Positions 20,318-49,100 of a DNA stretch of 64,000 bases are shown here, one piece after another; within the stretch, counting starts at the first letter, position 1; the number at the start of each line of letters is the position of its first letter. Source of the DNA: Aplysia californica (Eukaryota). Below the pieces are notes generated by a model. The model was not told the origin of the DNA. It was given only the letters and a program-made list of their open reading frames with translations, and searched no databases. Where the stretch lies: assembly GCF_000002075.1 (NCBI RefSeq), contig NW_004797711.1, positions 358,538 through 422,537 of the forward strand. Direction: 5' to 3'. The position numbers were made by a program, and so were the translations under genes.

Positions 20318-21774
20318 TGCATTATATCGTCCACCAGCTGTTAAAAGCCAGAAATTTTGAAAATTAACCCCCAAAAAATTAGTTTCTTAATTAATTTGTG
20401 GTATAGATGGTGATTAGATCTACATGTGCTCAAACAAAATTTTTGTTGAAATTCAAATTTCAAATGTTGAAAGAAAAAAATATGCAGAAGTAGGGGCCTA
20501 CAATTTGTTAAAAAGAATGAAACAGTTTTTTTCTATCTACTAAAAAGCTTTGTTTTACTGTCTTAGTACAGTCTTCTTAATGCATTTTAACAGCTTGCCG
20601 ACGAAATATTGGTATTACAAATTGCGTAGTATCTTACACCCATCGTAACTTGTGATGGTGATGATGCAAAGTGCAACATTTTATAAACAGAAAAAGTGCA
20701 GCACTTCCCAAAACCATTACGGTACTGTTACAGCAACATTCTTTCATCAAGTTGGGATATTGTCCGATTTCCTATTACTTAAGATAGAAGAATCTATTCG
20801 TCATTTCTTAACAGAAAAAGTCTAATAATTTCATACACATTCTCCTTTTGCGTTCTTTGCCCATTGCCACGGATGATGGAGCTAAACTAAAAAAAAAAGG
20901 AGCTCTCCTCACACTCTCCTTTTGAGAACGGCTCATGTAATACTATGAAATTTTGATTGTCAGTGAATTGAAACTGTTTTTGCCTTTCTATAGATCTACA
21001 ATTCATAAAGTCTGGAGTAACTAAAAAGTATATAAGACGATATATCCTATTATTTAATAGACCAAAACCAGATTATATTTATAATTTGGGGAACAGAAAA
21101 CAGCTTCTTGTATCCTGATTCTGATAGGAAAATATCCTGACAAGTTTAATACAGGGTAAACTTCACATTCTGCATCTCTTACCAGTATCACAGTCTGATC
21201 TTAATACTAATACATACACTTTTAAGACAATCAGAAACATAAAAGTTGTGATAATAAAACATAAAAGTTGTGATAATAAAACATAACAGTTGTGATAATA
21301 AAACATAACAGTTGTGACAATGCACGTGTATACAAGAAGCACAGTGACTGAACCATTCACACACTCTGCCTTACCCTGGCAGTAGCACAAAGTTGGAAAC
21401 AGAACTAGCAGGTCAAAATGGCCATAACCAGCCACCAGGCAGTTCCTCAGTTGACCAACATGACGCTAAAGAATGGAAAGAAGTTTTTAAACAGGTACAT
21501 GTTTTCTACACACCTCATTGACACAATTTAGAAAATTATTTACAAAGCGGGTTTTGACCCTGGCCGCCAGGCCAACTTGGGCTAAGAAGAGGTTTCCACT
21601 GTCGATTCCACAAAGTCAATGAACTAGGCCTATTGGGGAAACGTGGTATGGCCCAGTTTTTGACAGCACTGTCACTAAGCACGAAAACCCGTTTTCATTT
21701 TAGTAAGAGTTTCACGGCACTTGGAAAACTGTAAAGTTATATAATTGCCACAGATTAGTTGTTGCTAGAGAGTC

Positions 21775-22050
21775 TTCTTCTATCCCGTGGTTGGGGCAAC
21801 CGTTGGGGCACCACTGCATCGGAAAACCAGCTCTCGCCATCTATTTTTGTCCTCTGCTTTCCTCATATTGTCACCCATCGTCTTTCCTGTCCACTCTGTA
21901 ATGTCCTCCCATCTCCTTCTCTGCCTTCCTCTCTTTCTCTTTCCTTGCAGGATTGTTTTGGCAAGTCCTGTGGATCTTGTGACATGCTCATACCATTTTA
22001 ATTTTCGTCTCTTCACTGTGGTCAGTAGATCTTCATATTGCCCCAGTGCT
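21775..22050 (-). mobile_element. RTE-type LINE 3' fragment
   Basis: LLTTVKRRKLKWYEHVTRS.GLAKTILQG...GRQRRRWEDI with a GAAGA tail. Confidence 0.8.
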
Positions 22051-23264
22051 AGAGAGTAACATACCCAAAAAAAAGGAGATTTAAGGATGGTGATAGATGC
22101 TTGACAGAAATGAAGGAGCAAACCACACTAGAGCACCCACCAACAGCCCTGAACCCCTTCACAAATTTTTCTTCTTCTTCTCGATGGCATCACACTTGAA
22201 GTCTGGTATATGTCATAAATTGGGCCGTCCTGCTCAGTACATCCGTCGGCCCGTGTATAGCTTCTCTTGTAGCGTCAGTGGGGTTGGCCACGTTTCCTGT
22301 CTCAGGGCCCTGTGTGTCTTGCAGTGCTGAAGGATGTGTTCAACAGTTTGGTCCGCCTCTCCACACTGGCATTTTGGTGATTGTGCTAGTTTAAAACATC
22401 TGTACATATGCCCCTCACGAGTGTTTATGAAGGAATGCTCAGTGACTCAGTGGCCGGGGAAACATTCAAAGACCTGCTGAGCTTAACAAGATTTTGCTCA
22501 GATCCTGCTCAGACCGAGGATAATCTTCTTCATGGGCAGGTTGCCTCTGGAAGAAGAAGACGATTTTCTAAAGACAGCGAACTGTGTCTGTTATTTGAAA
22601 TTCAAAGTCAATGACATCGTGCCAACGCCGGGGAGTGAGTCATTGCTCACTGTTGTAATATAAGGGTGTTGTCTTTTTCATTCTATGCCTACATTACAAT
22701 TTTGTCCTACATTGAAGAAGATTATGTTGGTGGTGCCATTTCCTTCGCTCTACAACCTAACTTACAATATATTGACAGTGTTTCATAACTAGATCTATGA
22801 GTCTTCAAACTTAAAAAACAACAAATATCTCAGAATGTAAAAAATGTGATATCACCTGTTTTTTCCATTGAGCCCTTCAAAAATTACCCTTAACTCACTC
22901 TTGACTAACAACGGCACTCATATGATCGTACGCAGTTGCAAGCGCCGTAAAACCTCTTTTTCAACTTAAAAAAAACACCTCTTGACTAACTGTCTTTGGT
23001 GACTCATCAGCACTCTAGTTTCATTCACCCCACCCTCCTTAAAAAGTAAAAGATAGATCACCCTTCCACTCCTCATAAAAAGTAAAGATAGGATCACCCC
23101 CCCCCCCCCCCCAGAAAAGACAAAACAAAAAACAAAAAACAACAACAAAAAACCCCAACAAAACAACCCCCCCCCCCCCCAACCACAACCTTCATCCTCA
23201 CTGAGTCCTCCACTTGATCAGAAGTCAGACACCTGAACTTCATCCCAGGTCAGGAGGTGAGAGG

Positions 23265-23636
23265 TCATCTGGTAAGGGACACAGGGAACGGCGTGAGTCC
23301 GTACAAACCATCCTCTCTGACCTCAGTCTTGTACGTGCGCAGCGTGAGGCCCGTAGCAGACTGTCCAGTAACCAGGTCAAAGCTGTAATAGTGCAGAGGG
23401 CACACGACCTTGAAGCTGCCGCCGATGTCTTCAATGTCTCCCTGCTCCAGTGGACCGCGGGCGTGCGGGCACGTGGAGTTTGTCAGGAAGAATTTGTCTG
23501 GGGCCACGTAGAAGAGCGCTAGGCCCTGGCCGCCCTGCATGTAGACTTTCCGACATACTTTCTGTTTTAATTCTTCTACGCCACCAATGAGATGCCACTG
23601 GAGATCGGAATCCAAATTCTGAGGTGACTTTGCCAT
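23265..23636 (-). CDS. RFESD: Rieske [2Fe-2S] domain-containing protein (RFESD-like soluble Rieske ferredoxin), 123 aa, intronless CDS
   Basis: The ORF MAKSPQNLDS...PVSLTR* has both Rieske ligand boxes, CPH (C-x-H, followed by GPL) and CPLH (C-x-x-H, followed by YSFDLVTG). The ATG is in good context (atcATGG). The orthology implied by the symbol is tentative. Confidence 0.85.
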   Translation of the reverse strand: MAKSPQNLDSDLQWHLIGGVEELKQKVCRKVYMQGGQGLALFYVAPDKFFLTNSTCPHARGPLEQGDIEDIGGSFKVVCPLHYYSFDLVTGQSATGLTLRTYKTEVREDGLYGLTPFPVSLTR

Positions 23637-23689
23637 GATTCCTTCCAGTAAGTCGATCGACACTTGCGCACTATTTTTATACTAACAGT

Positions 23690-24150
23690 CAGTTAAGAAA
23701 ATGTTACTTCTACTCCAAGTGAGCACTTGTGTTCACAATTCAACATCCACAGCAGTTCAACAATAATGAAAATGTTACCTCTTCGAGTAAACACCTGCGC
23801 ACAACTTCAGTTTTACAATAATTTACATCAAAAGCAGTTAAACAACTGTGAAAATGTTTTTTTCTCCCCGAGTTGACACTTGCGCAAAGTATCAACAGCA
23901 GTTTAACAATTATGGAAATGTTACTTCTGCAAGTTAACACTAGCACACAATAGTACAATAATTTACATCAACAGCAGTTTAACAATTATGGAAATGTTAC
24001 TTCTGCAAGTCAACACTAGCACACAATATCACAATAATTTACATCAACAGCAGTTTAACAATTATGGAAATGTTACTTCTGCAAGTTAACACTAGCACAC
24101 AATAGTACAATAATTTACATCAACAGCAGTTTAACAATTACGGAAATGTA
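23690..24150. repeat. 76-bp tandem repeat (3+ good copies plus degenerate ones) between the SWI5 stop and the Rieske start
   Basis: CAACAGCAGTTTAACAATTATGGAAATGTTACTTCTGCAAG... units at 23893, 23969, 24045 and 24121. Confidence 0.9.
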
Positions 24151-24268
24151 ACTTATGAGAAATATTTCACACACACACACACAAAAAAGTTTTAGAAAGA
24201 AAAGTCCATCTGAGACACTAGAGACAATCAAACTACTACATGTAACCTATTTTCAGTGCAATCTATTT

Positions 24269-27200
24269 TCAGTCATTTAAATTCAGTCCATACTTTTCAT
24301 ACAGATCCTTTGTCTGCACGCCTTCAAGCACAGCTGTAGAGAGATCAGACAAAAAGCACATGGTTAGAAATAGTCAGACGAAATGAATGAAAGTTATTCC
24401 ATATGTCCCATTATCCCTTTAAAGTAACAAATATTTGCGGGGGGGGGGGGCAGGAAGCAGGAGTATTACTAACCTGGGAATCAGCATCTGTTTAGTATGA
24501 TTTTTTAAAAGTTTTACGGCGCTCGCAACTGCATAAGGTCATATGAGCGCCAGAACATTAGAGGTGTTACAAGAGAGTAACAAACATATAAAAGAAGGAG
24601 GAGGAATAAGGACGATAGATGTTTGATAGGAAAGAAGTTCAAGCAAACCACACCAGAGCACCCGCCAACTATCCATTGTTTCGTATAAGATAACACGTGT
24701 CTATAAAAATCTGAACAAAAGACTTGTTACCCAGCACACACTGCCAATAGGATTCGATCAGACTGAGTTGTGGCCAGTCAGATTTTCCTTCACGGAGATG
24801 CAAAAGCTACCATGTGGCACAATACGACCAATTAGACTCTCGACTTTGAAAACCCAAATACATTTGATTATGAAGGTCAAAGTAGAAATCAAGGACAGTT
24901 CCATCAAATTATGCCAAGATGGAAACTTTTGCTGCATTCATGAAGGGAAATCAAATTCAAACTAGCGCCAACTCCTATCAATGAATTATATTGGGAGAGT
25001 TCACACTGTATAAATTGTATACAACAGAGTAGTTCACTGTAAATATTTAACAGAATTATCTTCCAAAGACCCCCGGGAAGGATAGAACCATTCACTTGAT
25101 GTCATTTCACAGAAAAAATAATGCGCCTTACTAACTTCATCCTGCCATTCACAACAAAGACAATATTTTATTTTGTAACAATCAAGCAAAAAGTCAACGC
25201 CCTACACCCTAGAGTAAAATAAAAAACAAGTTGTAAAAACGAAGCCTTCTACTGGCTAGCGTTGATTCAAAGTTCAGGGACTTAACAAGAGAACTTTTAA
25301 CAGCAACACTAACAGAACCACATTACATACATTAGCTCAAAGGCTTATAGAAATCTCTAAATATCCTATAAACGGCAACACTTACAGAACAATGTTCATA
25401 GCTGCCAACTTATCAAAACCAAAACTGACACTAACCCACTTGCTACCACAGACATCGTTATATTTACAGACAGCCTTTCAATACTAGAGACACTTGAGAG
25501 TGGGACTGATGTGAACAGAGATATATCACACTGGATTTGGAGTCTACATCATTTGATAAGTAGGCACCAGATCAGAGTAGTCCTACAATGGATTCCTGCC
25601 CACACTGGGATACCGGGAAATGAAAGAGCTGATGCTCTGGCAAAGAAAGGAGCTAGCCTCCCTCAGCCTGAAATTCCTACTGATTACACCACCTGCTGCC
25701 AGATGATCAAGTCAAACCTCAAGGAAGAGTGGATGAACGATTGGGCCACAGGTACAAGAGGAAGGATGATGTATGGCCACATGAATAAACCACTGGTCAA
25801 AGATCCAATCAATGAGTTGAGGAGGGGAGATCAATCTATAACCTTCCAACTTAGAACACAACATGTACCCCTCAACCAACATCTCAACCGAATTGGAGTA
25901 AAGCAGTCTGCTGCCTGCCCACTATGTGACTACCCCTCAGAGACAGTGGAACATCATCTGTTCTTTTGTAGAAAACTGATTTAAGGGGATGTTTTCTTCC
26001 CAAGCTACCCCACACATCTAACTGCCTCTACTCCTCAAGACAACAATTAGAACAGACATGCAGCTATTACCGAATGGCATCATGCAGAAGAGTTAACGCT
26101 CAGAAGCTACAGGATCGCTAACAACATCAACATCAAAACAAAAAAAACTACTCTATCCTCAAGGCAGGTCAAGACTCTGGTCATTGACCAAGTTGTCCCC
26201 CTCCCAAACCCGTCACACTGCACGTGGTTCTCTCTGCATTCCATAAATCCGTGCCCTTATGGTATGGGACACAACTACAACAGACTCATGGGCTTTGTGC
26301 TCATTATTATTTGCCAAGTCCATAACTTTTTTATAACCATCTGCAAGTGCGAGAAAAGTTATACTAAAAAACAGGGAATACATATTTTCCAACACAAAAA
26401 TGATGGACTTCTGCACTAAGGCCCTAAAAATATTACATTAAATACAGCAAAGCACAGATAACTCAATACATCAGGGACTGACAAATGTGTGCAACACATC
26501 CATAATTCGGGTAAACTTTGCAACAAAATATCCAAGAGACATCAGCCCGAGAATGGCAAATTGTACAAGCTATCTGTGATTTCGAGCTTTCCAAGTTCAT
26601 GTTATCTGTGCCCGACTGTACGTTTTTAAACTGATTCCGTCCATTCGGCCGCTGACAGCGGCTCTGCACTTTTCCGCTGCATCCATTCGACCGCTGTGAG
26701 CGGCTCAACGAAATCCGAAACAAATGAGCACTTTTTAACTTAGTTCCTACTTTTTTTAGTTGTCGAAAGGAAGTAGAACTTGTAAACAAACCTGACCTCA
26801 ATCTCTGAGCGCCAATATCGATCGAAACTCCGGGAAATTTTCTATGTAGGCTAGATCTAAGGGTAAACAACGCGTAGCCTGGTGTAATAAAAAAGCCCTT
26901 CAAAGAAAGATATTCAACTAAATTTGTGAAATGCTTACATAAATGTGTGCTCGGGTGATATCGTTACAAGTTTGTGTTGATTCCTATGGATTATAAAGAC
27001 TCGTAGAGCTGAGAAAATGCGGTAAGTCGTAATTTTTGAAGAGGTGTTGCGCAATTTTTTTCCCCCATTCGTTTTTGTCTGACGAAAAATACAATACAAA
27101 CAGATTATAGATCATTGTTATTGATATAAACAGATTCCTCTATAGATTCCCATCACTTTGGTATATGACAATACCTATTAGAGTAACTTAGAGCTTCACA

Positions 27201-30200
27201 GTAATGCATTAAATAAATGCACCCCAGGTCTAAAACTGAACAAGGAAAAATAATTATGTCTAGAGCCTGAAAAAATCATGGACGGAATCAGTTAAGTACT
27301 GGTTGGGAGCTATCCACATCAATCTACAACGGAGTCAGCTGAAACAGAACACAGTTAACCCCCCAAAAAACAGCTGAAAACTGAAAGAAAAGAAAATCCC
27401 CAATTTTTTTCTTCTCTTTGAGCAGGTTTACTAAACCGAAAACCCGGTTAAACAAGAGAAAATTTGGCAGTCCTTTAGGTTTTGGTTTACGTGGATTCCA
27501 CTGCAGTTCAAACACTGACCGATTCTTCCAAGCAGCATCTGTCCTATATCCTTGATCTCGTTATACTCGTGCAGCTTTTCAATGTGCGTCTGGAGCTCAC
27601 TTTCTCTTAACCCTCTGTAGGTAGAAAGAAAAATAACAGGTTTTTGGGGGTTATTTTTTTCAGTCTGAGTAAGTAAGAGTTTTACAGCATTTGAAACACC
27701 CTACATCATACAAGAGGTGCCAAAGATTAGAGGTGTTACTAGAGAGTAACATACAAAGTGTAAAGTCAAAGAGCGAAAAAGGAAAAAGTAAGACAGACAG
27801 ACCGCAACAACAGTCGGAAAGAAAAGTGGAGTGGCTGAGCATGGACGGCATCAAGTATTCCATAAAAAATCTTTTTAAAAAAAGATTTAAAGTATTTTCA
27901 AAAAATTACAACTTTGAAATCATGTTTAAAATTTATAAACAATCACCACAACAAAAGGCTGTCATGAGCCTAAGCTATGATAGTGGCCCATAAGGGATAA
28001 AAAAAATCTAAAAATCTAGGGACACGCCTTGGCACAAAGGGGCAGGCTGCACTAACACAAAACTACAATACTTTGATGCTGTCCCCGTGGTCTTATGCAC
28101 CCCGCATAATATTTAGGAAAATTTGATCATTTAAAAAATAATTTCTGATTATTTTCCTTTATCATTCTTTGTTAAAATTAACAGAATTGCATTATAATTT
28201 CACATTTTTGGGCTCAGTTTGCATAATTTCATAATTTTTTTTGCACAAAACCCACGGGGACTGTTTGATGTTAAGTAATAGGGGCTGCAAAATATCATCA
28301 CGAGGGACTCGATTGGCCCATAGTATAGGCCGAGAAGCTGAGACTCCTGGTCCACAGCAGAAAGGAGAACTGAAGAGGACAAATGTGGAAAGAACATCAC
28401 TTGCCTGGACTCCAACTCCGTGATATCTTCTTTAGTCTCTTGCAACTTTTTCTTGAGATGTTCAATTTGTTGCTTCGCTTCCGACGCTGAGGATGGGGCC
28501 TCTCTCTGTGAGCACTGAAAGCAGACCCAGAAGATACTTTTAGGAAATTTAAACCACAGTTGAGTAAATGGCTTAACTTAAAAAATGAAAATGTAGGTGT
28601 TTTTAACCCCCTCCCCCCCCTCGAGACAATTTAGGAGGCGGGCTTCCAACATTGCCTGTCAGGGCCAAACCGTGATAAATGGGATATAATATAAAATCCC
28701 AGCAGAAAGACCCGGACACTCAATAAAAATTCTCCTCACTTGGGAATCAAACTCAGGTCTCCTGTGGGCGACAGCAAAATGCCTAACTGCTACACCACAG
28801 ATACTGGTCCTTAACTTTAAAAAAAAAAAAATTAATGAAAGGTTAAGCACAAAGGCGAGACCCTCATACATTAACAGTAGTGTCCTGATAAATCTCTACA
28901 TTTGGGAAAAAAAGGCAAGCTCTTAAGACAAGCAACAAAACTATAGATAGGCCTACACATGAAAAAACCCAAAATAACCTTGGCTCCTCTTAAAATCTAC
29001 AATTGAAAGAAGTCACAAAATGGCAGAAAAACAATATGCAGCCCACATCTAAATACTGACAGTGAAGTCTGCCCTTGTAAAAGAAAGGGGGGGGGGGGGG
29101 CGCACCACCACGAAGACCTGCACAGTGACATTCCAAAAACTAAAGTCCAAGAAATCGAAAAGACAGAGTACACCAATATCATGAAAATACAAATTAAGGC
29201 CTCCAACTCCCACCAAGAATACTTCCAGAACGTGAACAATACCTTAAGGGATAAAGAAAATATCACTGAGCAATGCATGGTGGGCGAAAAGCACTGGGCT
29301 CACTGGACCTTACAGATTTCTTGATTTCATGGTCGCCTAAGTTCACATTATCTATCATCAACAGAAAGTGCGTTAATGCATGAACCAGATAACACAAGCG
29401 TTCAACATTGCAGCTGTTGTCAACAAAGATTTACAAGGAGCTGGCAGGAAAAAGAGTGGCCTGTAAATCCGGGTCAAAGGATGATTTAGTTTTAGTAAGA
29501 GTTTTACAGCACTTGCAACCCAATTATGTCATATAGGAGCTGAAGATTAGAGGTCCTATTAGAGTATATTATGAAGAAAAGAAGGAATGGAAATAAGGAT
29601 GATAAACATTTGATAAAATAAAGGAGCAAACCACACGAGAGAACCCCCCAACAACCATCCAAAGAAAGAAATGGATAACTAAATGTGGGATTCAAGACGC
29701 ACACTGACACTCAAAACTTTGGGGCATCTTTAACATAACCAGTGCAGTCAAAATTCTAAACTCTCCATCTCATAGTCATAGATACAAATAGCTGGGATCT
29801 GTTCATTTTTTTCTATCCCCAAGTGCAGTTCTAACTCCCAAATCTATGCTTGCAAGCTTTAATTAGTTTTATGCCTCTAGTCTACTTTGTTAGTTTGCTT
29901 GTTAGATTAAAGAGAAGTCCACCCAAACAATAATGGTCATTTAGTGCTGGGAAGAATTACGAGAGAAACACACGAACAACAGAGGGAAAGAAAAGAAATA
30001 GGACCTACCAGTAGTGTCCTCCATTCACCCGTGGTCTACCTTTGAACAGAATTTGAATTCCACCCACAGAGATAGGAAAAAAATAGGAAAAAAAATTCTA
30101 ATGTAGGTGTTTCTACACCCTCATTGACACAATTTAGACTTTTCAGGAGGCAGGTTTCCCACAATGCATGTCAGGGCCAACCAGATCTGAGATTGAGAGG

Positions 30201-33200
30201 CTTACATCACTTACAACTTCCCAGCAGAAACACTGAGATACATAATAAAACTTCTCCTCATTCGGGAATCAAATCTGTGTCTCCTGCATGCGACAGCGAA
30301 ACACCTAACCACTATACCACAGACACTGGTCTAGAAAAACAGTGCTAGCAAAAAAAACCATGAACAAACTAATTCAATCAAATTTAATCTCAATTGTTGA
30401 TCGCAGAGGTACTTACAGCTTTAGTCAAAGGCGACTTAAATTGCTTTGCAAGAGGGGACTTGAACTGTTTCACACTGGTCGTGCTCTTGAAAGCAGCACT
30501 GAAAATAACATGATTGCTGAGATTAACACAAATGATGGATAAAAACACCAACCAACAGAGTAAGGGATAAAAACATCATTCGGAACACAAATATTCAGAG
30601 TAAAAGGAGATGGGAATACAACCCAGAGTCCGGTGATGGCATCTGCCCCACAAGCTTACTTAACAGACAAGGCCAAAGCTCATAAAATTCACACTGAGGA
30701 CAGAACAAGTCAAATAGACCCGTTGAGGAATTGTTGATGATATAATGACATGTAGGCTATCTGAATTAAAGCTTAAAAATTATAAAGCTTCTTTCACCAA
30801 AATCTCCAAGGCGGAATTGTGCATGATGCAAGCAAGCAACGCGAGTCTCTAATAGCATGAAGCAACAGATAAACTGCATTATAAACTATATCATGTAATA
30901 AAAAAAACAGAGCTCCAAATAAGAGAAAAAGGGGACTCCATTGTGAGTAAATATATTAACATATCATTCATACCTTTTATATAATCAATAATAATCATTC
31001 TGTTCTGAGTAAATTAACACAAGAAATGATAAGAGTTGTAATGGTAATGGAATTTACACTGAGCTTTTAGAGAAAGGAAATTAGGTTTTAGCTGAACTGA
31101 CAGGAAAGATCATTTATGTTGTCTTGACCAACACTTCCATCCAACAAATACAGAGAAGATCAAATATATATATATACATCTGCACCAGAACGAAGAGTTT
31201 TTGCCTTCAAACAGAATAAAACCAGAATGTAAAATTAGAAAACTAACAGCAGCACATGAAGCCAAGATAACAGGTCTGGCCCTACTTATTTAGAAGTCAT
31301 TTTACAACATCTACAAGTTCGCCGGTATCGGGGCACAGAATACAAATATATCAGACACTTTACTCCATCATTTTACCACCTTACAGTGTCTTACCATCAG
31401 CATTTACTCCTGATAAGAATCAATTCTTTTCTTTATAAACATTGCAACATTGCCATTCACAAGGTTCATGAACAAAAAGAAATGCTCTAGAGTAAAGATC
31501 TAAGGAGGAATTCAACTAGATAACCATCCTCGTCAACTGCCCCCCCCCCCCCAAAAAAAAAGTAATGCATAGTTTTGAAAAAAAGTAGGCCTAATTAAGT
31601 GTTTTGGTTACAAAGTGTGTAGTGCATTTCAAACTTGATCTAAAAATTAACCATGTAAAACCACTTATTATATTTATTGAATTAATAAAAAATAGTACTC
31701 AATAAAAGCAAGGGTACCCAGAATTCCTTTTAAGTTTGAAACACCTGCTGAACATCGGAGTCTAATTGAAAAAAACCCCAATACAATAGGGTGGATAAAT
31801 TGTTACAGTATAAATTTAATGAATAATGTTACATCACATGTCACGATGCAGTGGAATCAGGTGCTCATCAATTTTTGGCCATGTGGAGATTTGGGTGTCA
31901 TCCAAAAAGTTGTTTATTTTTGTCTATCTTTTGATTTAAAAAAAAATGTCCATCTAACTTGAAAAGAAGTTGAGACACTTCTGATTTAAGGAAGTGGCGT
32001 CGCCTGATTTTCCAGAGATAAAATAACTTATTTAATAAGTAGTGAGAAAATGGCTGCCAAAGTTTGGTGACTTCTATAGTTGATTAAGAGTCTTTGTGAA
32101 CTGAAAATTTACATTTTTTGTGCCTTTAATCAATGTATTTCAGAAAAATCCCCACAGAAATGTGCTATTGAACTGACGAGTACCAGTCATTTCGTCACAC
32201 GGTCATTTCGTCACTACCGTGCCAAATCCACAAGAATTAAGAATAGATTCAAAAACTGTAAAATATGTATTGACAATATTGAAATATCTCTAGTCAGATC
32301 AACAAAGTTTTTAGGTATCATTGTTACTGCTGAGAAGTGTGATTGGCAAGATCATATTAGTTCTGTTAAAAATAAATTAGATGTACTGCAATTTTGCTAA
32401 AAGCTAGACCCTTGCTTTTAAATGTGAAGCCTTACGACGGTACTAACTCTTTACCAGACATTGTTTTCGCCTTATTCAAACTATTTTTCAACTATGGAAC
32501 AGCTCAGACGAAGATTTAATTTACATTAATAATTTATTTAACTTTTAAAAAAAAGCTTTAGGCTTAAGTTACTTAAAAAACAAGAGGACACGGCCAAACG
32601 ATTTCGTGTTTAAATTGATGATTGAGAATAAAGACTGCGCTGGTGCTGATCCTCCCAAACTTTACAAGCATGACAATTTCGGAGAGAAAACGAAGTCATT
32701 TCGTCACACATAACTGGGGTGTGACGAGATGACCTCAAACCACTAGGTCAAATCATCAAATCAAATCACCAGCATGATAAGTTGAGTCTAGCCTAAGCTT
32801 CAAGTCCACACCAACTAGCAACTCGCGAAGCCACTCGTGTCAGACCCCCTCATCCTCCCCATCCTGCTTGCAATCCGCGAAGCCACTTACGTCAGAAAAA
32901 GAGAGAGGGGGGGGGGGAGAGTGAGAGATTCCACTCACAGTGTCACTGCGCGGCGTAGCGCTGGAGTCTGCTCTATTAACCGAAGGCTTGCGAGCAGCGG
33001 ACAGCCGTCAAGTTTCAAATCTCGGTCGCAGCAAAGCAAGTCCCATGAGTCCCATTGTCTTGCTTTGTGCCAGTGACTTGCTCACAGCCCGGCAAGTCTC
33101 TCGGCTCCCATTTTTTGCTTTGGCTCCCAGTACCAGCTCGCAACCTGGCAAATCACTTGGCTGACTTGTTGTAGCAGCGAGCAGCAAGACCGCTTGCAGT

Positions 33201-36007
33201 GTGAACTCTGAACCGTGGAGGAAGGGAGAGGCTGTGCTTGTTTGGTGCAAGACGTAGAGAGCCGAAGTTATTTTTAACTTCCCGCCGCTGATCAGCTTAG
33301 CGAGTGGATAAGTGAGAGGGAGTGTGGTATTGCAGTAACAGAGACCTAGGTTTCTGGTAGTAATAAGAATAAGTAGACTTAGATTACCCTAGAATGGAAA
33401 ACTCCAGGGGTCGTTGTGATTGGCTTTTGTATCGTATTTATGTAACCTATTGCATGTAGATGTTTTACATTCACAGTGACATTATACAGAACATTTAGGA
33501 GACGGGCTAGGCCTACTTCAACCCAGTGTCAGGGCCAACCTGGGCTGAGAGGGAGCAATGCACTAGCAGAAAGACGGAGGTTCTCGGTAAAAATTTCTTC
33601 CCATACAGGAATTGAACTGAGGTCTTTTGAGTGCGACGACGAAGCGCTTGGCTCGTGCACATTAAAAACACACAGGCCTTTGCATCGTAAGAATAGCCGA
33701 TCCATTATTAATTTTTAAGTGCATTGAATAGAGCTTTTTATTTAGCAATGCCAATCGGGCTTTCACGCACGGCGAAAATTTGTCCCCGTTTACGGGCGAT
33801 TTTGCGGACCCAGCCGAAGTGTAGGTGACTAACTTTGTCAACCTCGGTCTGCTCTATTTCCGAACCAATCCGAATGAAACTCGGCAACCAATCAGAAAAT
33901 AGGGCAAACTAAATATATGTGGACGTTGAAGTTCGTACACATAAATTAACCTATACTTTTGGTGTCGGGAACACTTTTGCATCGTGTACACCGAAAACTA
34001 TAAGGAGTTTGAATTTCAACGCCCAGATGGTAATAGATCTATCTATCCTCTATAGTGTGCTCAAATTTGAACGTTCTGTGTCAAGTAGTTGTTTAGACCC
34101 GATCATAAATGCACAACTACCCCCCTATCCAAAGCGGCTTCGCACGGAGACCGGCCATTTTCCCTTCACTCTCGTGGCAAATGTATGTGACCTACAAATC
34201 CCCGCTTGACTATTCCGGGCCCGTTCATTGGTCACTTGAAATAGGGCAATGGCGCGCGCGCGCATCCGGTTGTTTTTCTCTCTATTCCCCTGTAACATCG
34301 CAATGGGGGTATTCCGAGGCGAGGTTATCTCGTCTCGGGGTGTTCGCGTCTCAACGGGGAAACGGAATTTTTAATTGTACGGCATGCTAGATTGAATTAA
34401 CTTATCTTTTAAGGTTGGCATGGTCTAAAGTCATCATAAAAAGCTTTGCAATTATTTAGTCACGCTGCCGACATATATTCTTAAAGATCCCAGGTTGTGA
34501 TACGATGCTATAAATAAAATGTATTAAAAATGGACTCATCCCGACACCCCTTTTTCGCAAAATCGTAATGTATGTATACCAAAATTTTAATTATAACAAA
34601 ATAACTACGAAATGGGTAGTAAATCTGACTGCAGAAATTATTTCTACATTCAAAAACACATCGGGTAGCCAAGTTTCTCTCGAACACTGATTAGTTACCG
34701 AGATATCGTCGATTTTCTTACAGAATCTGCTACTGTTTTTTGTTTTTTTACCAAACTTTTTAGGAGTATTTTCCTATATGTGGGTCATCCATATTTTGCC
34801 GACCTTTACAACCCCATAACTTTTTTATTTATGAACCGATTCTTAAAATTCAAGAAGCATAATTCTTAGAATTGAAAATTCTTTCTTAGGTACCAAAATA
34901 AAAAGGGCTAAAGTGAAAATTTAAATTTTCATTGGCATTGCTATTTTATTTTTTACGACCCGACTATGGAAAAAAAACAATCTTGCACTTTTGGTGCAAG
35001 CCTCTCAAAGCAAATAACCAGAATCTTCTGTAATATGTACTGAGCCCACAGCCATGAGAGTCGCGACGTCACGACGCAGTAGAGCAAGACTGTCTGAGAG
35101 TCACAATTCACCGGAAGTTCCCCCGGTAGCAAGCGGGAGGCAAAGCAAAGCACAAGCCTGCTCGCAAGCCTCTAGCGCAAGCTGTCCGCTGCTCGCAAGC
35201 CTTCGATTAGTCGAGCAGACTCCAGCTGTCTAATTTTGAAGAGCGCCTGATTTCACCATGATGACTCACATTTAATGATTTATGTATAGATCTACATATG
35301 ATCATAACATTTGTGAAATTTCTCCATTGTATAGAATCCCAAATCTCCACCATTTGTGAAAAACCTGTGGTTTAGATACAGACAGCAGACTGTTTAAGCA
35401 GTGACCTGTACCAGGTCAGTCTGTCTATAATGGCGAGGTAGTGTGCACTCCATTCTGGCTCTGGTGACTGACTGGTACTGGTATGGTACGAAAAAACAAC
35501 TAGCAACTGTCACAATTCAATCATCAATGCTGTGTCCGGTGTTTTTGATGGCAGCACAATGATGCTCATGTAGAGTGCAGTAGAGTATTAGAGTAGGACT
35601 TAGCCCAGTAGGACTATAATTATATCACCCAGTGGCTCATCTGAACTGACTTGCTAAAGCCAAAGGCATAGGCATATCTATAGTATAGGTGGGTTATAGG
35701 CCCACGTCTGCCCTACTCACCAAGCAACAAACAATGAAGAAATGAATGTACAGCTTTAAAAGTTTCACTGATGACCGATGAAGCCATGGGCATGGATGAT
35801 GGTGCGACCCAGGAACGGGTAAAACTGCGTGAAGAGTGTACTAAACTAAGATACTAAGTCGTCTAAGTCTAAGTGGCCAAGGGTAAACATACATACAAAG
35901 AAAAAGCTTTAGCTTTAGCTAAAATTAAAGCTTCAAGTAAACCAGAAGGCCTCGAGTGAGTGCAGGTCTTTTTTGTTTACATACCTTCTCTTCATCTCAC
36001 GAACCAT
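24269..36007 (-). CDS. SWI5: DNA repair protein SWI5 homolog (SWI5-SFR1 complex), 124 aa; complement(join(24269..24333,27520..27614,28405..28514,30417..30498,35985..36007))
   Basis: The spliced translation is MVREMKRSAAFKSTTSVKQFKSPLAKQFKSPLTKACSQREAPSSASEAKQQIEHLKKKLQETKEDITELESRGLRESELQTHIEKLHEYNEIKDIGQMLLGRIAVLEGVQTKDLYEKYGLNLND*. It contains the Swi5 signature HI.KLHEYN.IKD.GQML.G..A...GV.TK.LY..(F/Y)GL. Exon phases (2,0,2,1) are all compatible. The first coding exon is the least certain. Confidence 0.92.
25441..26135 (+). mobile_element. LINE 3' fragment with RNase H and CCHC finger (I/Nimb/Ingi group)
   Basis: IVIFTDSLS...LQWIPAHTGIPGNERADALAK (RNase H), then QLRTQH...CPLC...ETVEHHLFFC and a short CAACAT tail. 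Confidence 0.85.
32960..35226. mobile_element. Non-autonomous DNA element with 46-bp TIRs in SWI5 intron 1
   Basis: GCTGGAGTCTGCTCTATTAACCGAAGGCTTGCGAGCAGCGGACAGC (32960-33005) is inverted at 35181-35226 with 3 mismatches. Confidence 0.7.
33739..34950. mobile_element. Helentron-associated (HINE/pearl-like) or other non-autonomous element, nested
   Basis: Perfect 13-bp inverted repeat TAGCAATGCCAAT (33743-33755) / ATTGGCATTGCTA (34931-34943) within T-rich flanks, with no TSD. The class is inferred. Confidence 0.45.
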
Positions 36008-36363
36008 GAAAATAAAACGTAGCCAACGTTCGTTCGGCAAACAAATTTACACACTCCTCCACCACCACGATTCGAGTTCGTTCGGCCTCCGTTCAGCTCA
36101 GTCTGTGGTGTTCTCAGTAGTCTTGTCCCCAGATATCCTCTACTATTCACGCAGAAACGAACTCAGAGGATCAATATTTGGTTTGTCTGGATATTTTGCC
36201 CCTTTCACTGCTCCTGGTTGTTGTCGGGATTTAGTTTATAAGTCATAAGTTAACAACACATAGATCTAGATCTAGATCTAGATCTAGTCATAATACATGA
36301 ATGTAGAGATATTTTTGTTTACAAACAAACCGCCGCTTTCATTTTTATTCGTTTCAGCCAAAT

Positions 36364-45960: not shown

Positions 45961-46157
45961 GACATATAATCCTTCCTCATTGTGCTTTCTAAAACATGCC
46001 TGAACTGAGTACTTGTCGATTTTGAATAACTTAAAAGATTTTTTCAGTCTATTTTGAATTACTTTTTCTAGTTTTCAGTCAATATTGAATCATTTTGTCA
46101 TCTTTTTGATGTATTTTTAATTACTTTTTCCTCTTTTCAGTTGAAAGACACACTATA

Positions 46158-49100
46158 ATGGAAGGTACCCCAAGCCAGCTTGACCTGTTGAGTAGATTCG
46201 TCTGCGTTGGATCTGAAGACGGAACATATACAGTGACCACACAGAAAAATAAGCAACAAAGTCACAGTAAGAGAAAGTCAACCTCTACAATCCTATTTTC
46301 TGCTGAAACAGAAAAACCAGAAGTTTTAAGTCCTTTCCTAGCATCAACTGAGGAGAGTTTGAGGGCTCTTGACAAGCTAAGGAAAGTATTTAAAAGAAAA
46401 TGGTACATCAGTAAGGACCCTCTGCTTTCATCCCTTGCAAGAATTGTGCGTTCTTCGGTCCCCTCCAATGAGAAAAATCATGAAAATGATGCAGTGAGAG
46501 ATCAAGCGTATAAGCTTGCACTACAAGTTTGCGAGACTTCAAAGGATCTTTTCACCTTTGTTAATTTAGATAAATTCTATGGGAAGCCCAAAGTAGACGG
46601 TAAATGTAAAGTGGGATGGGGGCGAGGTTTAAGGACTATGATTACAGAATTTTATGAGTCCAAGCCAGCGCTGAAGTTAGCTCGAGAAGTGATGCACTGC
46701 AAGCAAGCTCTGGGATTTACACACCGTGATTTGATCAGACAGTGTCACCTGCACCCCAGCAAAAAAGGCAGAGGTAAGGCTTCCTATTGGCTTTTGATGA
46801 CTACATATTGCTCTTCGGTGGAAGAGAATTTATTTTTTGTGTTTCTGTGTNNNNNNNNNNNNNNNNNNNNNNNNNNNNNNNNNNNNNNNNNNNNNNNNNN
46901 NNNNNNNNNNNNNNNNNNNNNNNNNNNNNNNNNNNNNNNNNNNNNNNNNNNNNNNNNNNNNNNNNNNNNNNNNNNNNNNNNNNNNAACATCCATCATTCT
47001 TGTGAAATTTCTCCTTCTTTTCTGTGTTTGTTGCTCTCTGGCAATACCTGTAATCTTTGGCTCTTGTATGACCTAATTGTGTTGCGAGGGCCATAAAACT
47101 TGTACTTCAACATGACAAAGCGTGTCGTGCTAGTCGGTTGGTGGGATCAGACAGACCTACCACTCATCCTTTTAATTGTGGAATGACAAACATGGACTTT
47201 TCTCAAATGTAGCCTTTATTTTTATATATATATATATATATGAAACACAGTATCTATCATAGACTCACCACTGCTCAAATGTACATCTCTGATATATGTA
47301 CATAGCATCGTCTCTGCTCGAATGTACATGTACAAAAGTGTGTCATCTCTGCCTCTTCTCCCTTCTCCTTCCTTCCTCTTTATTGCGGGTGATTGGAGGA
47401 TGCCGCGGGTAGAGCTGTCTTTCTTTCTTTTGTCTTTTTTCCCAGCACTAAGTGGCCATTTATTTGGTGATTGGGCTTCTTTTTGCTCAAACTAAATCCT
47501 TTTTACTCTTTCATCAAAGACAAGTGCTTTGCGATATTGAAATAATTTATTTGTTTCTGATGGGTAAAAGCATTTTACTTGAACAAAAAGTAAACCCACT
47601 AGCTACTGTTTACTGGGATTTTTTTTTCCGCACACTCTTTTATTTTGCATTTGTCCATTTTATTTTAAGCAAATGTTTGGAATTTGGGATTTGAGTCGCC
47701 CAGTGTCATGTATGTATTTGGGTTCCAATGCAGTAATGCCGCCTTTTCACATTTGTGAGGGATTTGAATTCGCAGATTTTAAAAAGAATCGTGAATTCAA
47801 GTAGCACACGTTAAAATAAAATAAATAAAAAGTACATAGTATCTGTTGAAACAGTGGCAGTAGCCTTGTTAGGTTGATGAACCATATTTTAAACTTGTGT
47901 GGGTTAAATCGTTGCAGGTTGTTGGGTGCGAGTGGTTGGAGGGCACCCCTGATAGGTCCTACTTCTTTTCTTTCCCTCTGTTATTTACTTCCTGTCTTAC
48001 TTGCTTTTTCTGAGTACTAAATGATGTGCTTCTCTTTAACTTTAAGCAAATAAAAGTGGTAGGATCATACATTATTGGTTTACTGGTATCTGGTGTAGGT
48101 GTTGGCACTTCTCTGTTGTAGAAGACTTGAGTTCTTTTCTGGAGGGAGGAGACATTTTTATTGAAACTCTCGATCTTTCTGCTGGGATGTTGTGTTCCTT
48201 TAGCCTGAGTTGGCTTTGATTGGCTTGGTCGAAAGCTCTCTTCCTAAATCATCTAAATAGTGATCATGGGGGTGTAAGTGAAAAAAACCACCTACATTTT
48301 TTAGAAAATGTTATCGTTTCGATCTTTCAGGCAGAGCTGAAGTAATGAATTACTTGGTGAAGGATCAGCAGCTGGTAGACTCCAAGATGGAAATGGACGA
48401 AGAGGCTCAAGCAGTGATGACCTTTCTCCAGGACGTGCACCAGCTGAAAGGAAACTTTGGAGACAACAAGGACAAAGTGCGCGTCCTGGTGGAGAAACAC
48501 GGCCTGACCAGCCAGCAGGTGCCGCCCAACTGCCTGCAGTTCAAAGAGGTACTTTACTTTACTTACTTTTCCGATCCAGCGGCTATTTGGGTTCTAGCCC
48601 TTCGGTCTGTCAATATGGCAAAGAATTGACAGGTTTTAATCAGCTGTGCTTTGTCGCTGTATAGAGTATTTCCGATGTCTGGGGAGGCAGGTAGGTAGGT
48701 GCTACACAGGTTGCAAAGTGCTGGGCAGTTAAAGAGGTGGTGTGGTACTGTTTCATCCTGGCAGTCGCACAACGGGCAGTCGGGTGGGGTATCCTTGCGG
48801 ATCCTATTAAGGGAGGAATTTAGTGGTATGTGTTGTGTTCGCAGGCGAAAGATCGTTACTTGTTGTCTTCTACTCAGGGAATTTATTGCATCTTTAGAGT
48901 TGGGGGCTGTCATGTGTGCAAATACAGTTCTTTCAGTTTTGCCCATTGCCCATCCATTGAGCCACTGTTCCCTGGTGTTGCATTTGATGATGTTCTTGGC
49001 TGTCTGTTGTGATACTGGGTTGTGAGGTTGTGTTTGTGATGCTCCCTTCTTGTCAAGGGTGTCTTCTCTAGTTCAAGGAGGTAAGATTAGATAAGACAAG

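What the first reader, a model, noticed from the sequence alone, without database searches (positions are those of the whole stretch)
23265..24333. Intronless Rieske ferredoxin ORF immediately behind the SWI5 stop codon: possible bicistronic or shared transcript
Seen: the Rieske ATG (23636) is 632 bp downstream of the SWI5 TGA (24269) on the same strand. I found no AATAAA or ATTAAA on the minus strand in between, and most of the spacer is a 76-bp tandem repeat. Just upstream of the ORF there is a plausible acceptor (tttcttaactgactgttag|23681), from which the frame is open in phase 0 into the Rieske ORF, followed directly by TATAAAAA (23681-23674). Three inferred alternatives: (a) a bicistronic SWI5-Rieske mRNA; (b) an alternative last exon spliced from upstream SWI5 exons (exon 2 ends in phase 0 and would fuse in frame); (c) a retrogene with its own tiny TATA promoter inside the SWI5 3' end. 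Any of these would link a recombination mediator to an Fe-S electron carrier.
Basis: partly seen in the sequence, partly recalled or inferred. Interest (0 to 1): 0.72.

Follow-up and report, generated by a model that had tools for sequence, protein, structure and literature searches.

The report
Conserved SWI5–Rieske two-gene transcript in snails
In the sea hare Aplysia an intact, intronless iron-sulfur (Rieske) protein gene sits 632 bases behind the stop codon of the DNA-repair gene SWI5, the same two genes are neighbours in two distantly related gastropods, and the SWI5 message likely runs through both genes, which would make it a two-gene mRNA of a kind well known in flies.

Summary
A 123-aa intronless Rieske ORF with all four cluster ligands starts 632 nt behind the SWI5 stop (Aplysia californica, by the SWI5 hit). 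The neighbourhood is old: in Bulinus the two genes lie on one strand, SWI5 first, 98 nt apart; in Plakobranchus they have consecutive accessions on one scaffold. Sequencing runs hold the spacer: 15 transcriptome-sized runs carry 0.72-0.76 of its words, which fits coverage without a gap; in the one such run laid, spliced SWI5, spacer and downstream UTR have similar depth (44-58), but with an unexplained trough over the ORF. No read or contig spans both ORFs, so one shared mRNA is likely (about 0.7), not shown. The exon-2 fusion is not supported; a young retrogene is not supported (gastropod-wide clade, no close parent). The 'acceptor' and 'TATA' both lie in the last degenerate copy of the 76-bp repeat, and the missing poly(A) hexamer is what chance gives (P 0.34). 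Nothing links the two proteins functionally. Verdict: a likely new, conserved molluscan member of the known dicistronic-locus class.

The parts
35985..36007 (-). SWI5 exon 1, coding part (ATG at 36007); 5' end of the exon inferred near 36329
   Evidence: sequence; joined model translates to the 124-aa RefSeq isoform X2 P0009; 345-nt first exon inferred from contig-12 bookkeeping
30417..30498 (-). SWI5 exon 2 (ends in phase 0)
28405..28514 (-). SWI5 exon 3, followed by a GC donor
   Evidence: X5 contig 12 record 428-537; donor GCAAGT
27520..27614 (-). SWI5 exon 4 (core of the Swi5 domain)
   Evidence: 95 nt equals contig-12 record 538-632; PF07061 match
24269..24333 (-). SWI5 last coding exon with TGA
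   Evidence: X5 contig 12 record 633 onward
23637..24268 (-). 632-nt spacer (SWI5 3' UTR / intercistronic region); 7 ATGs, 5 of them ATG-stop; no canonical poly(A) hexamer; folds no better than shuffles
23642..24154 (-). locus-specific 76-bp tandem array, 7 copies, most diverged next to the Rieske ATG
   Evidence: found nowhere else in G000 (which skips very common words)
23674..23700 (-). candidate acceptor (AG ends 23682) and TATAAAAA (23681-23674), both inside repeat copy 7; function untested
23265..23636 (-). intronless Rieske [2Fe-2S] ferredoxin ORF, 123 aa
21058..23264 (-). inferred shared 3' UTR; X5 contigs at 22381-23086, 22016-22135 and 21500-21802 (running on below 21500); candidate ATTAAA signals at 21150 and 21058
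   Evidence: the 3' end itself was outside the laid stretch

Best explanation
An intact intronless Rieske ferredoxin ORF lies 632 nt behind the SWI5 stop on the same strand, the pair is conserved in other gastropods, and the main SWI5 mRNA likely runs unspliced through the spacer and the Rieske ORF to a shared distal poly(A) site, while the Rieske protein is likely made mostly from a shorter mRNA with the same 3' end that would start inside the SWI5 3' UTR. Shown: both ORFs, the spacer, its repeat, the conserved adjacency. Inferred: one molecule carrying both ORFs (about 0.7 taken alone). Inferred more weakly: the internal start (candidate TATA 23681-23674, start near 23649, 13-nt leader), because scanning across a 124-codon ORF and 17 upstream ATGs should be inefficient. 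The linkage would persist because the two genes overlap in their transcription signals (SWI5 needs the far poly(A) site, the Rieske start lies in SWI5's last exon), not because the proteins work together. The protein is predicted to be a soluble [2Fe-2S] one-electron carrier; its partner is unknown.
For: Adjacency: Bulinus Btru_020977 (SWI5) 1250563-1265786 (+) then Btru_020978 (Rieske) 1265885-1267363 (+), 98 nt apart, next listed gene 15 kb on (PMC8861042 supplement rows); Plakobranchus GFN81439.1/GFN81440.1 on the same 1,392,073-nt contig. Coverage: 15 of 18 holders are transcriptome-sized (49-136 million letters, 5 studies) with word shares 0.72-0.76, against 0.82-0.90 for the 3 genome-sized ones; gap-free coverage predicts 0.73-0.79, a gap 23661-24110 at most 0.60, an absent ORF at most 0.59. 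X5, the 1 of those 15 that was laid, is cDNA-like (spliced SWI5 contig; 0 depth in intron bin 24888-25371 against 83 in X1) and has depth 51.8 on SWI5, about 48 (residual estimate) in the repeat and 57.9/47.6/44 downstream of the ORF. Contig 12 ends at 24111, inside repeat copy 1, where identical copies would break a contig. For a second, shorter mRNA: 17 ATGs upstream of the Rieske ATG; spacer fold z = 0.34; Bulinus Rieske TPM 2.9/1.1 against SWI5 0.9/0.5; only 45 of 159 fly dicistronic loci are exclusively dicistronic and those have spacers of -34 to 319 nt (PMC4528330 passages).
Against: No read or contig spans both ORFs, and contigs show neither strand, start nor end. X5 depth falls to 28.6 and 10.8 in the two bins over the ORF, where one unspliced mRNA predicts about 43 and 55, and no X5 piece over 23195-23920 is listed; the tool warns that records are filtered out, but I could not resolve this. 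Word shares record presence only, so minor read-through would give the same numbers; 14 of the 15 runs are RNA by size alone. A gap only at 23661-23890 is less firmly excluded (P 0.06 without polymorphism loss, 0.0007 with 10%). Depth does not step up after the ORF (52 to 58), so an internal promoter must be weak in X5. The TATA is repeat-derived. The Bulinus TPM ratio may be 3' bias, and whether its model ends are CDS or UTR ends is not stated. A second Bulinus SWI5 (Btru_011526) has no listed Rieske neighbour (file cut when stored). Plakobranchus strand and distance are unknown.
Confidence: 0.4

Rival explanations
1. Obligate dicistronic mRNA: the Rieske ORF has no promoter of its own and is translated from the SWI5-led mRNA by reinitiation or internal ribosome entry.
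For: Flat X5 depth before and after the ORF (52 vs 44-58); 98-nt gap in Bulinus, inside the -34 to 319 nt range of exclusively dicistronic fly loci; 114 nt of the Aplysia spacer plus 5 nt are non-repeat, so the ancestral spacer was probably short; good start context (A at -3, G at +4) at the Rieske ATG only among spacer ATGs; a cellular IRES is described in Aplysia (egg-laying hormone mRNA, PMC3760813 passages); both RefSeq models fall in one co-expression module.
Against: 17 upstream ATGs and a 124-codon first ORF; no structure signal (z 0.34); the spacer sequence tolerated a 500-nt repeat expansion; the module has 2387 transcripts and also holds the neighbours KIFAP3 and DOLPP1.
Confidence: 0.27
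2. Two separate mRNAs: SWI5 ends in the spacer at a non-canonical signal, the Rieske gene has its own start, and spacer RNA is minor read-through.
For: Depth trough at 23436-23919 could be a 5' taper; variant hexamers AATAGA (24267) and TATAAA (23681) are present; NCBI lists the Rieske protein as a separate record.
Against: Predicted bins (45, 28) do not match the observed (28.6, 10.8) either; SWI5-level depth continues into the repeat (about 48); the two raw-read poly(A) runs show 0 depth in 23920-24403, though they barely cover the locus at all; a 98-nt gap in Bulinus leaves little room.
Confidence: 0.2
3. Shared pre-mRNA in which the Rieske ORF is mostly removed as a 3' UTR intron and kept in a minority of transcripts.
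For: An acceptor-like AG at 23269 (top 1% of window AGs) and about 10x retained depth reproduce both trough bins (28.5, 10.0 against 28.6, 10.8).
Against: Fitted after seeing the data; one filtered contig fits as well (27.3, 11.2, two free ends); the pyrimidine tract is explained by conserved Pro/Val/Ser/Leu codons; no such joint among the 15 shown of about 600; a long low-depth contig over the ORF should have been listed and was not.
Confidence: 0.07
4. Alternative last exon: SWI5 exon 2 splices to 23681 and gives a 173-aa fusion.
For: Phase-0 donor and open phase-0 acceptor.
Against: Unbranched SWI5 contig; none of the 5 other hits (67-216 aa searched) has a SWI5-like N-terminus, and Met1 aligns in all 11 rows; acceptor is repeat-derived and middling; the fusion would lack the Swi5 domain.
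Confidence: 0.03
5. Two-gene operon resolved by spliced-leader trans-splicing at the AG 45 nt before the ATG.
For: Same-strand short spacing and an acceptor-like AG just upstream of the ATG, the anatomy of chaetognath operons (PMC2481426 passages).
Against: Searches gave no paper reporting SL trans-splicing in Aplysia or molluscs (listings; 0 hits for the mollusc terms in PMC7986045); the AG is repeat-derived; no poly(A) signal before it.
Confidence: 0.03

Closest known systems
Drosophila dicistronic loci (FlyBase release 6.04: 159 pairs; PMC4528330, passages read)
   Same: Two small, unrelated, conserved ORFs on one strand with a short spacer; mixed dicistronic and monocistronic forms are the common state there (45 of 159 exclusively dicistronic).
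   Different: Here in gastropods; no spanning cDNA seen; Aplysia spacer (632 nt) is longer than the -34 to 319 nt of exclusive loci because of a local tandem array.
Soluble Rieske-type ferredoxins (PF00355/PF22543; best solved relative PDB 3d89, E 1.2e-12; RFESD family name)
   Same: CxH and CxxH ligand motifs, single domain, about 120 aa.
   Different: Belongs to a gastropod clade (99/95 support); Aplysia has two other, multi-exon small Rieske genes (G000 C756 and C196), and C196 looks more like vertebrate RFESD by a C-terminal motif that I recall, not tested against a named RFESD.
Retrogenes nested in host UTRs (recalled class)
   Same: No intron at the two positions where the C756 paralog has them.
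   Different: No close parent (50% over 46 aa to C756), no A-run of 7 or more downstream, orthologs from Littorina to Lymnaea; any retroposition would be very old and cannot be told from intron loss.
Trans-spliced operons of chaetognaths, nematodes and tunicates (PMC2481426)
   Same: Close same-strand genes, acceptor-like site before the second ATG.
   Different: No spliced leader known to me or found by searches in molluscs.

Membership tests
Rieske [2Fe-2S] ferredoxin | Pfam score above curated cut-off | tested here: met
   PF00355 38.1 vs 20.3 bits; PF22543 34.7 vs 28.4
Rieske [2Fe-2S] ferredoxin | Cys-x-His and Cys-x-x-His ligands | tested here: met
   C56 H58 C79 H82, conserved in orthologs
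Rieske [2Fe-2S] ferredoxin | binds the cluster and transfers electrons | not testable with these tools
   needs protein work
RFESD ortholog | groups with vertebrate RFESD to the exclusion of other Aplysia paralogs | tested here: inconclusive
   55-row tree held no named mammalian RFESD; two other Aplysia paralogs exist
Dicistronic mRNA locus | two non-overlapping conserved ORFs, same strand, short spacer | tested here: met
Dicistronic mRNA locus | one processed mRNA spans both ORFs | tested here: inconclusive
   coverage fits but no spanning contig or read; trough over the ORF
Dicistronic mRNA locus | no dominant poly(A) site between the ORFs | tested here: inconclusive
   no canonical hexamer, P 0.34 by chance; no 3'-end data
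Dicistronic mRNA locus | both proteins translated from the same mRNA | not testable with these tools
   needs ribosome profiling or reporters
Retrogene | lacks introns present in a paralog | tested here: met
   C756 paralog exon bounded by AG/GT at two positions that are continuous in the window ORF
Retrogene | identifiable close intron-bearing parent | tested here: not met
   nearest paralog 50% over 46 aa; proteins of that paralog's type fall in another clade
Retrogene | poly(A) remnant downstream | tested here: not met
   no run of 7 or more A in 23264-20800; target-site duplications not searched
Alternative-exon fusion gene | junction or fused homologs | tested here: not met
   unbranched contig; no N-terminal SWI5 piece in homologs; 0 of 30 Rieske relatives scanned carry PF07061
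SL trans-spliced operon | spliced leader on the downstream mRNA | not tested
   no 5'-end reads; literature searches blank

The most novel reading that the evidence does not exclude
The Rieske ferredoxin has no promoter at all: since the split of sea hares, sacoglossans and freshwater snails it has been made only as the second cistron of the SWI5 mRNA, by internal entry or reinitiation that in Aplysia works across a 500-nt array of ATG-stop repeats. That would be an obligate, long-conserved bicistronic mRNA in molluscs and a natural second-cistron element testable in Aplysia neurons.
Probability: 0.27. Interest if true: 0.68.

Novelty: new member of a known kind. Interest (0 to 1): 0.44.

Why it matters
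Two-ORF mRNAs are catalogued in flies (2.5% of genes), but my searches found no report of this pair or of a molluscan case. A conserved example in Aplysia, where bicistronic reporters already work in identified neurons, makes the mechanism directly testable. It also matters for annotation: an ORF inside another gene's 3' UTR is easily dropped, and read counts for the two genes are not independent. It does not, on present evidence, tie DNA repair to Fe-S electron transfer.

Tried and rejected
no RNA holder listed (no holder is on record as RNA); not counted for or against. Raw-read poly(A) runs X23 and X24 had 0-0.4 depth over the locus, too low to give strand, ends or joints. No fine-scale read lay of 22400-24400 is available, so the trough and any joint at 23681 or 23268 remain open. 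JGI metagenome scan gave 8 loci at 32-47% identity, none a gastropod-level ortholog; not examined further. Spacer folding: no structure beyond shuffles, 13 of 20 folded as well. Stop-codon readthrough rejected: 632 is not a multiple of 3 and the frame into the ORF closes at 23684. Horizontal transfer from bacteria rejected: the ORF nests among animal proteins and its clade follows host relationships (55 of about 160 relatives chosen by me, trimmed to the domain, midpoint root). A possible SWI5 first exon at 32461-32436 was dropped in favour of 36007-35985, which matches RefSeq X2. Supplement searches with no relevant hit: PMC8079154 (12 of 32 files searched), PMC10795318, PMC8414863; PMC11296145 had none readable. 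PAP2 search did not place DOLPP1 in the window. ESM Atlas gave only generic Rieske clusters. Seven look-ups of earlier findings returned nothing. No structure or complex prediction was run, since no binding is claimed.
Full report
Observation. The minus strand carries a single-exon 123-aa ORF at 23636-23265 that passes the Pfam Rieske cut-offs and has the ligands C56, H58, C79, H82. SWI5 has five exons (36007-35985 coding part, 30498-30417, 28514-28405 with a GC donor, 27614-27520, 24333-24269); the model gives the 124-aa RefSeq isoform X2 of Aplysia californica. The spacer is 632 nt. It has no AATAAA or ATTAAA, but 1.07 are expected, so P is about 0.34. The 76-bp array has 7 copies, 24154-23642, and ends 5 nt before the ATG; it was found only at this locus. 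The acceptor is middling (8.2% of 3964 AGs score as well).

The protein. Orthologs at 56-66% identity occur in Lymnaea, Bulinus, Plakobranchus and unnamed ENA/Logan records, and at 40-49% in Littorina and Batillaria. They form one clade (99/95) that follows host relationships and sits among animal Rieske proteins (55 rows of my choice). All 11 aligned rows share Met1. Aplysia has two other small Rieske genes, both multi-exon (C756, C196). The window ORF lacks the two introns that bound the C756 exon, but the two are only 50% alike over 46 aa and no A-tail remains, so this is an old gene that lost or never had those introns, not a recent retrocopy. P0006 is a complete ORF on a 97.8-kb ENA contig, which suggests (inference) that it is intronless there too; P0031 stops after the first ligand motif in what looks like an intron read-in, so some relative may keep an intron.

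Conserved adjacency. In Plakobranchus the ortholog is GFN81439.1 and SWI5 is GFN81440.1, on the same 1,392,073-nt contig. In the Bulinus gene table (PMC8861042, supplement rows) SWI5 ends at 1,265,786 and the Rieske model starts at 1,265,885, same strand, SWI5 first; the next listed gene is 15 kb away. Both have transcript support there (TPM short/long 0.9/0.5 and 2.9/1.1). That is 2 of 2 other species where both partners could be located; for Lymnaea, Littorina and Batillaria I had no SWI5 accession, and for Elysia, Biomphalaria, Physella, Pomacea and Haliotis no located Rieske ortholog. A second Bulinus SWI5 has no listed Rieske neighbour (table cut when stored, file 6 not searched). The lineages involved split some 200 million years ago or more (recalled).

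RNA evidence. Of 18 runs holding 23000-24500, 3 are genome-sized (shares 0.82-0.90) and 15 transcriptome-sized (0.72-0.76, 5 studies); none is on record as RNA. Coverage without a gap from the SWI5 last exon downward predicts 0.73-0.79; a gap at 23661-24110 allows at most 0.60 and an absent ORF at most 0.59; a gap only at 23661-23890 allows 0.69 and is less firmly excluded. I laid 1 of the 15 (X5). It is cDNA-like: an 855-nt spliced SWI5 contig at depth 51.8, and no depth in a unique intron bin where the genomic run has 83. That contig is unbranched across all junctions and stops at 24111, inside the first repeat copy. Residual depth over the repeat is about 48, and contigs downstream of the ORF have 57.9, 47.6 and 44 and run on below 21500. 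Against this, the two bins over the ORF have only 28.6 and 10.8. One unspliced mRNA predicts 43 and 55, two separate mRNAs 45 and 28; a filtered contig or a mostly skipped ORF both fit. The tool states that records are filtered and that a dip is no finding. No molecule spanning both ORFs was seen, and strand, starts and ends are unknown. In Aplysia sensory neurons XM_005104921.2 (which I match to this ORF by inference from accession offsets and the Bulinus best hit XP_005104978.1) and SWI5 XM_005104909.2 share a co-expression module (PMC8195618, supplement rows and section 3.2); this shows expression, but the module has 2387 members including other neighbours.

Mechanism. The simplest reading is that SWI5 uses a poly(A) site beyond the Rieske ORF (candidates 21150, 21058), so its mRNA has two ORFs (about 0.7). 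How the second protein is made is open. Seventeen ATGs precede it on the model mRNA, the spacer has no special fold, and most fly dicistronic loci also make single-ORF forms (PMC4528330 passages). I therefore favour a minor shorter mRNA begun inside the SWI5 3' UTR (0.40 for the whole model) over obligate reinitiation or internal entry (0.27), two separate mRNAs (0.20), ORF skipping (0.07), exon-2 fusion (0.03) and trans-splicing (0.03). An IRES is described for another Aplysia mRNA (PMC3760813 passages). The gradient of repeat decay suggests that a short ancestral spacer, like the 98 nt of Bulinus, grew by local duplication (inference).

Comparison and novelty. It works like the Drosophila dicistronic loci and meets the anatomical criteria; the spanning-mRNA criterion is inconclusive. 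Searches for SWI5 + Rieske + bicistronic (0 papers), RFESD + SWI5 (1, a mouse brain study by its listing), dicistronic + SWI5 (0) and bicistronic/polycistronic + mollusc (1, a frameshifting review by its listing) found no report of this pair; the library lacks most subscription journals, and unread supplements may bear on this. Searches on trans-splicing in Aplysia or molluscs gave nothing positive (listings and passages only). No evidence ties SWI5 function to the ferredoxin. Verdict: real, conserved, a likely new member of a known class; interest 0.44.

Noticed in passing
window 28404-27615 (-): SWI5 intron 3 is a GC-AG intron, confirmed by the spliced X5 contig.
   Followed up: yes
window 27519-27431 (-): RefSeq SWI5 isoform X1 (XP_012941623.1) reads on into intron 4 and lacks the last exon; it would not carry the Rieske ORF if it ends there.
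   Followed up: partly
window 23290-23268 (-): Strong acceptor-like tract ending one base before the last codon-stop of the Rieske ORF, followed by a 16-codon ORF whose ATG overlaps the Rieske TGA.
   Followed up: partly
window 24120, 24044, 23968, 23828 (-): Four repeat copies each carry an ATG followed directly by TAA, overlapping a TGA.
   Followed up: partly
window 32461-32436 (-): ATG-led stretch with a GT donor in the right phase for SWI5 exon 2; possible alternative first exon, unsupported so far.
   Followed up: no
window 46110-46850 (+): TROVE domain exon (RO60-like), divergent from SWI5.
   Followed up: no
window 25361-25984 (+), 48566-49072 (-), 22234-22446 (-): LINE fragments (RNase H, zf-RVT); the third, by resemblance only, lies inside the inferred shared 3' UTR.
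   Followed up: no
P0028, P0035, P0045, P0058: A related animal subfamily fuses the Rieske domain to DUF455 (PF04305), e.g. in Lytechinus.
   Followed up: no
L009 1456-1373 and 1112-1032: The C196 Rieske gene has two near-identical copies of one exon 344 nt apart.
   Followed up: no
Bulinus Btru_011526: Second SWI5 model annotated with a THAP domain (PF05485), probably a merged model.
   Followed up: no
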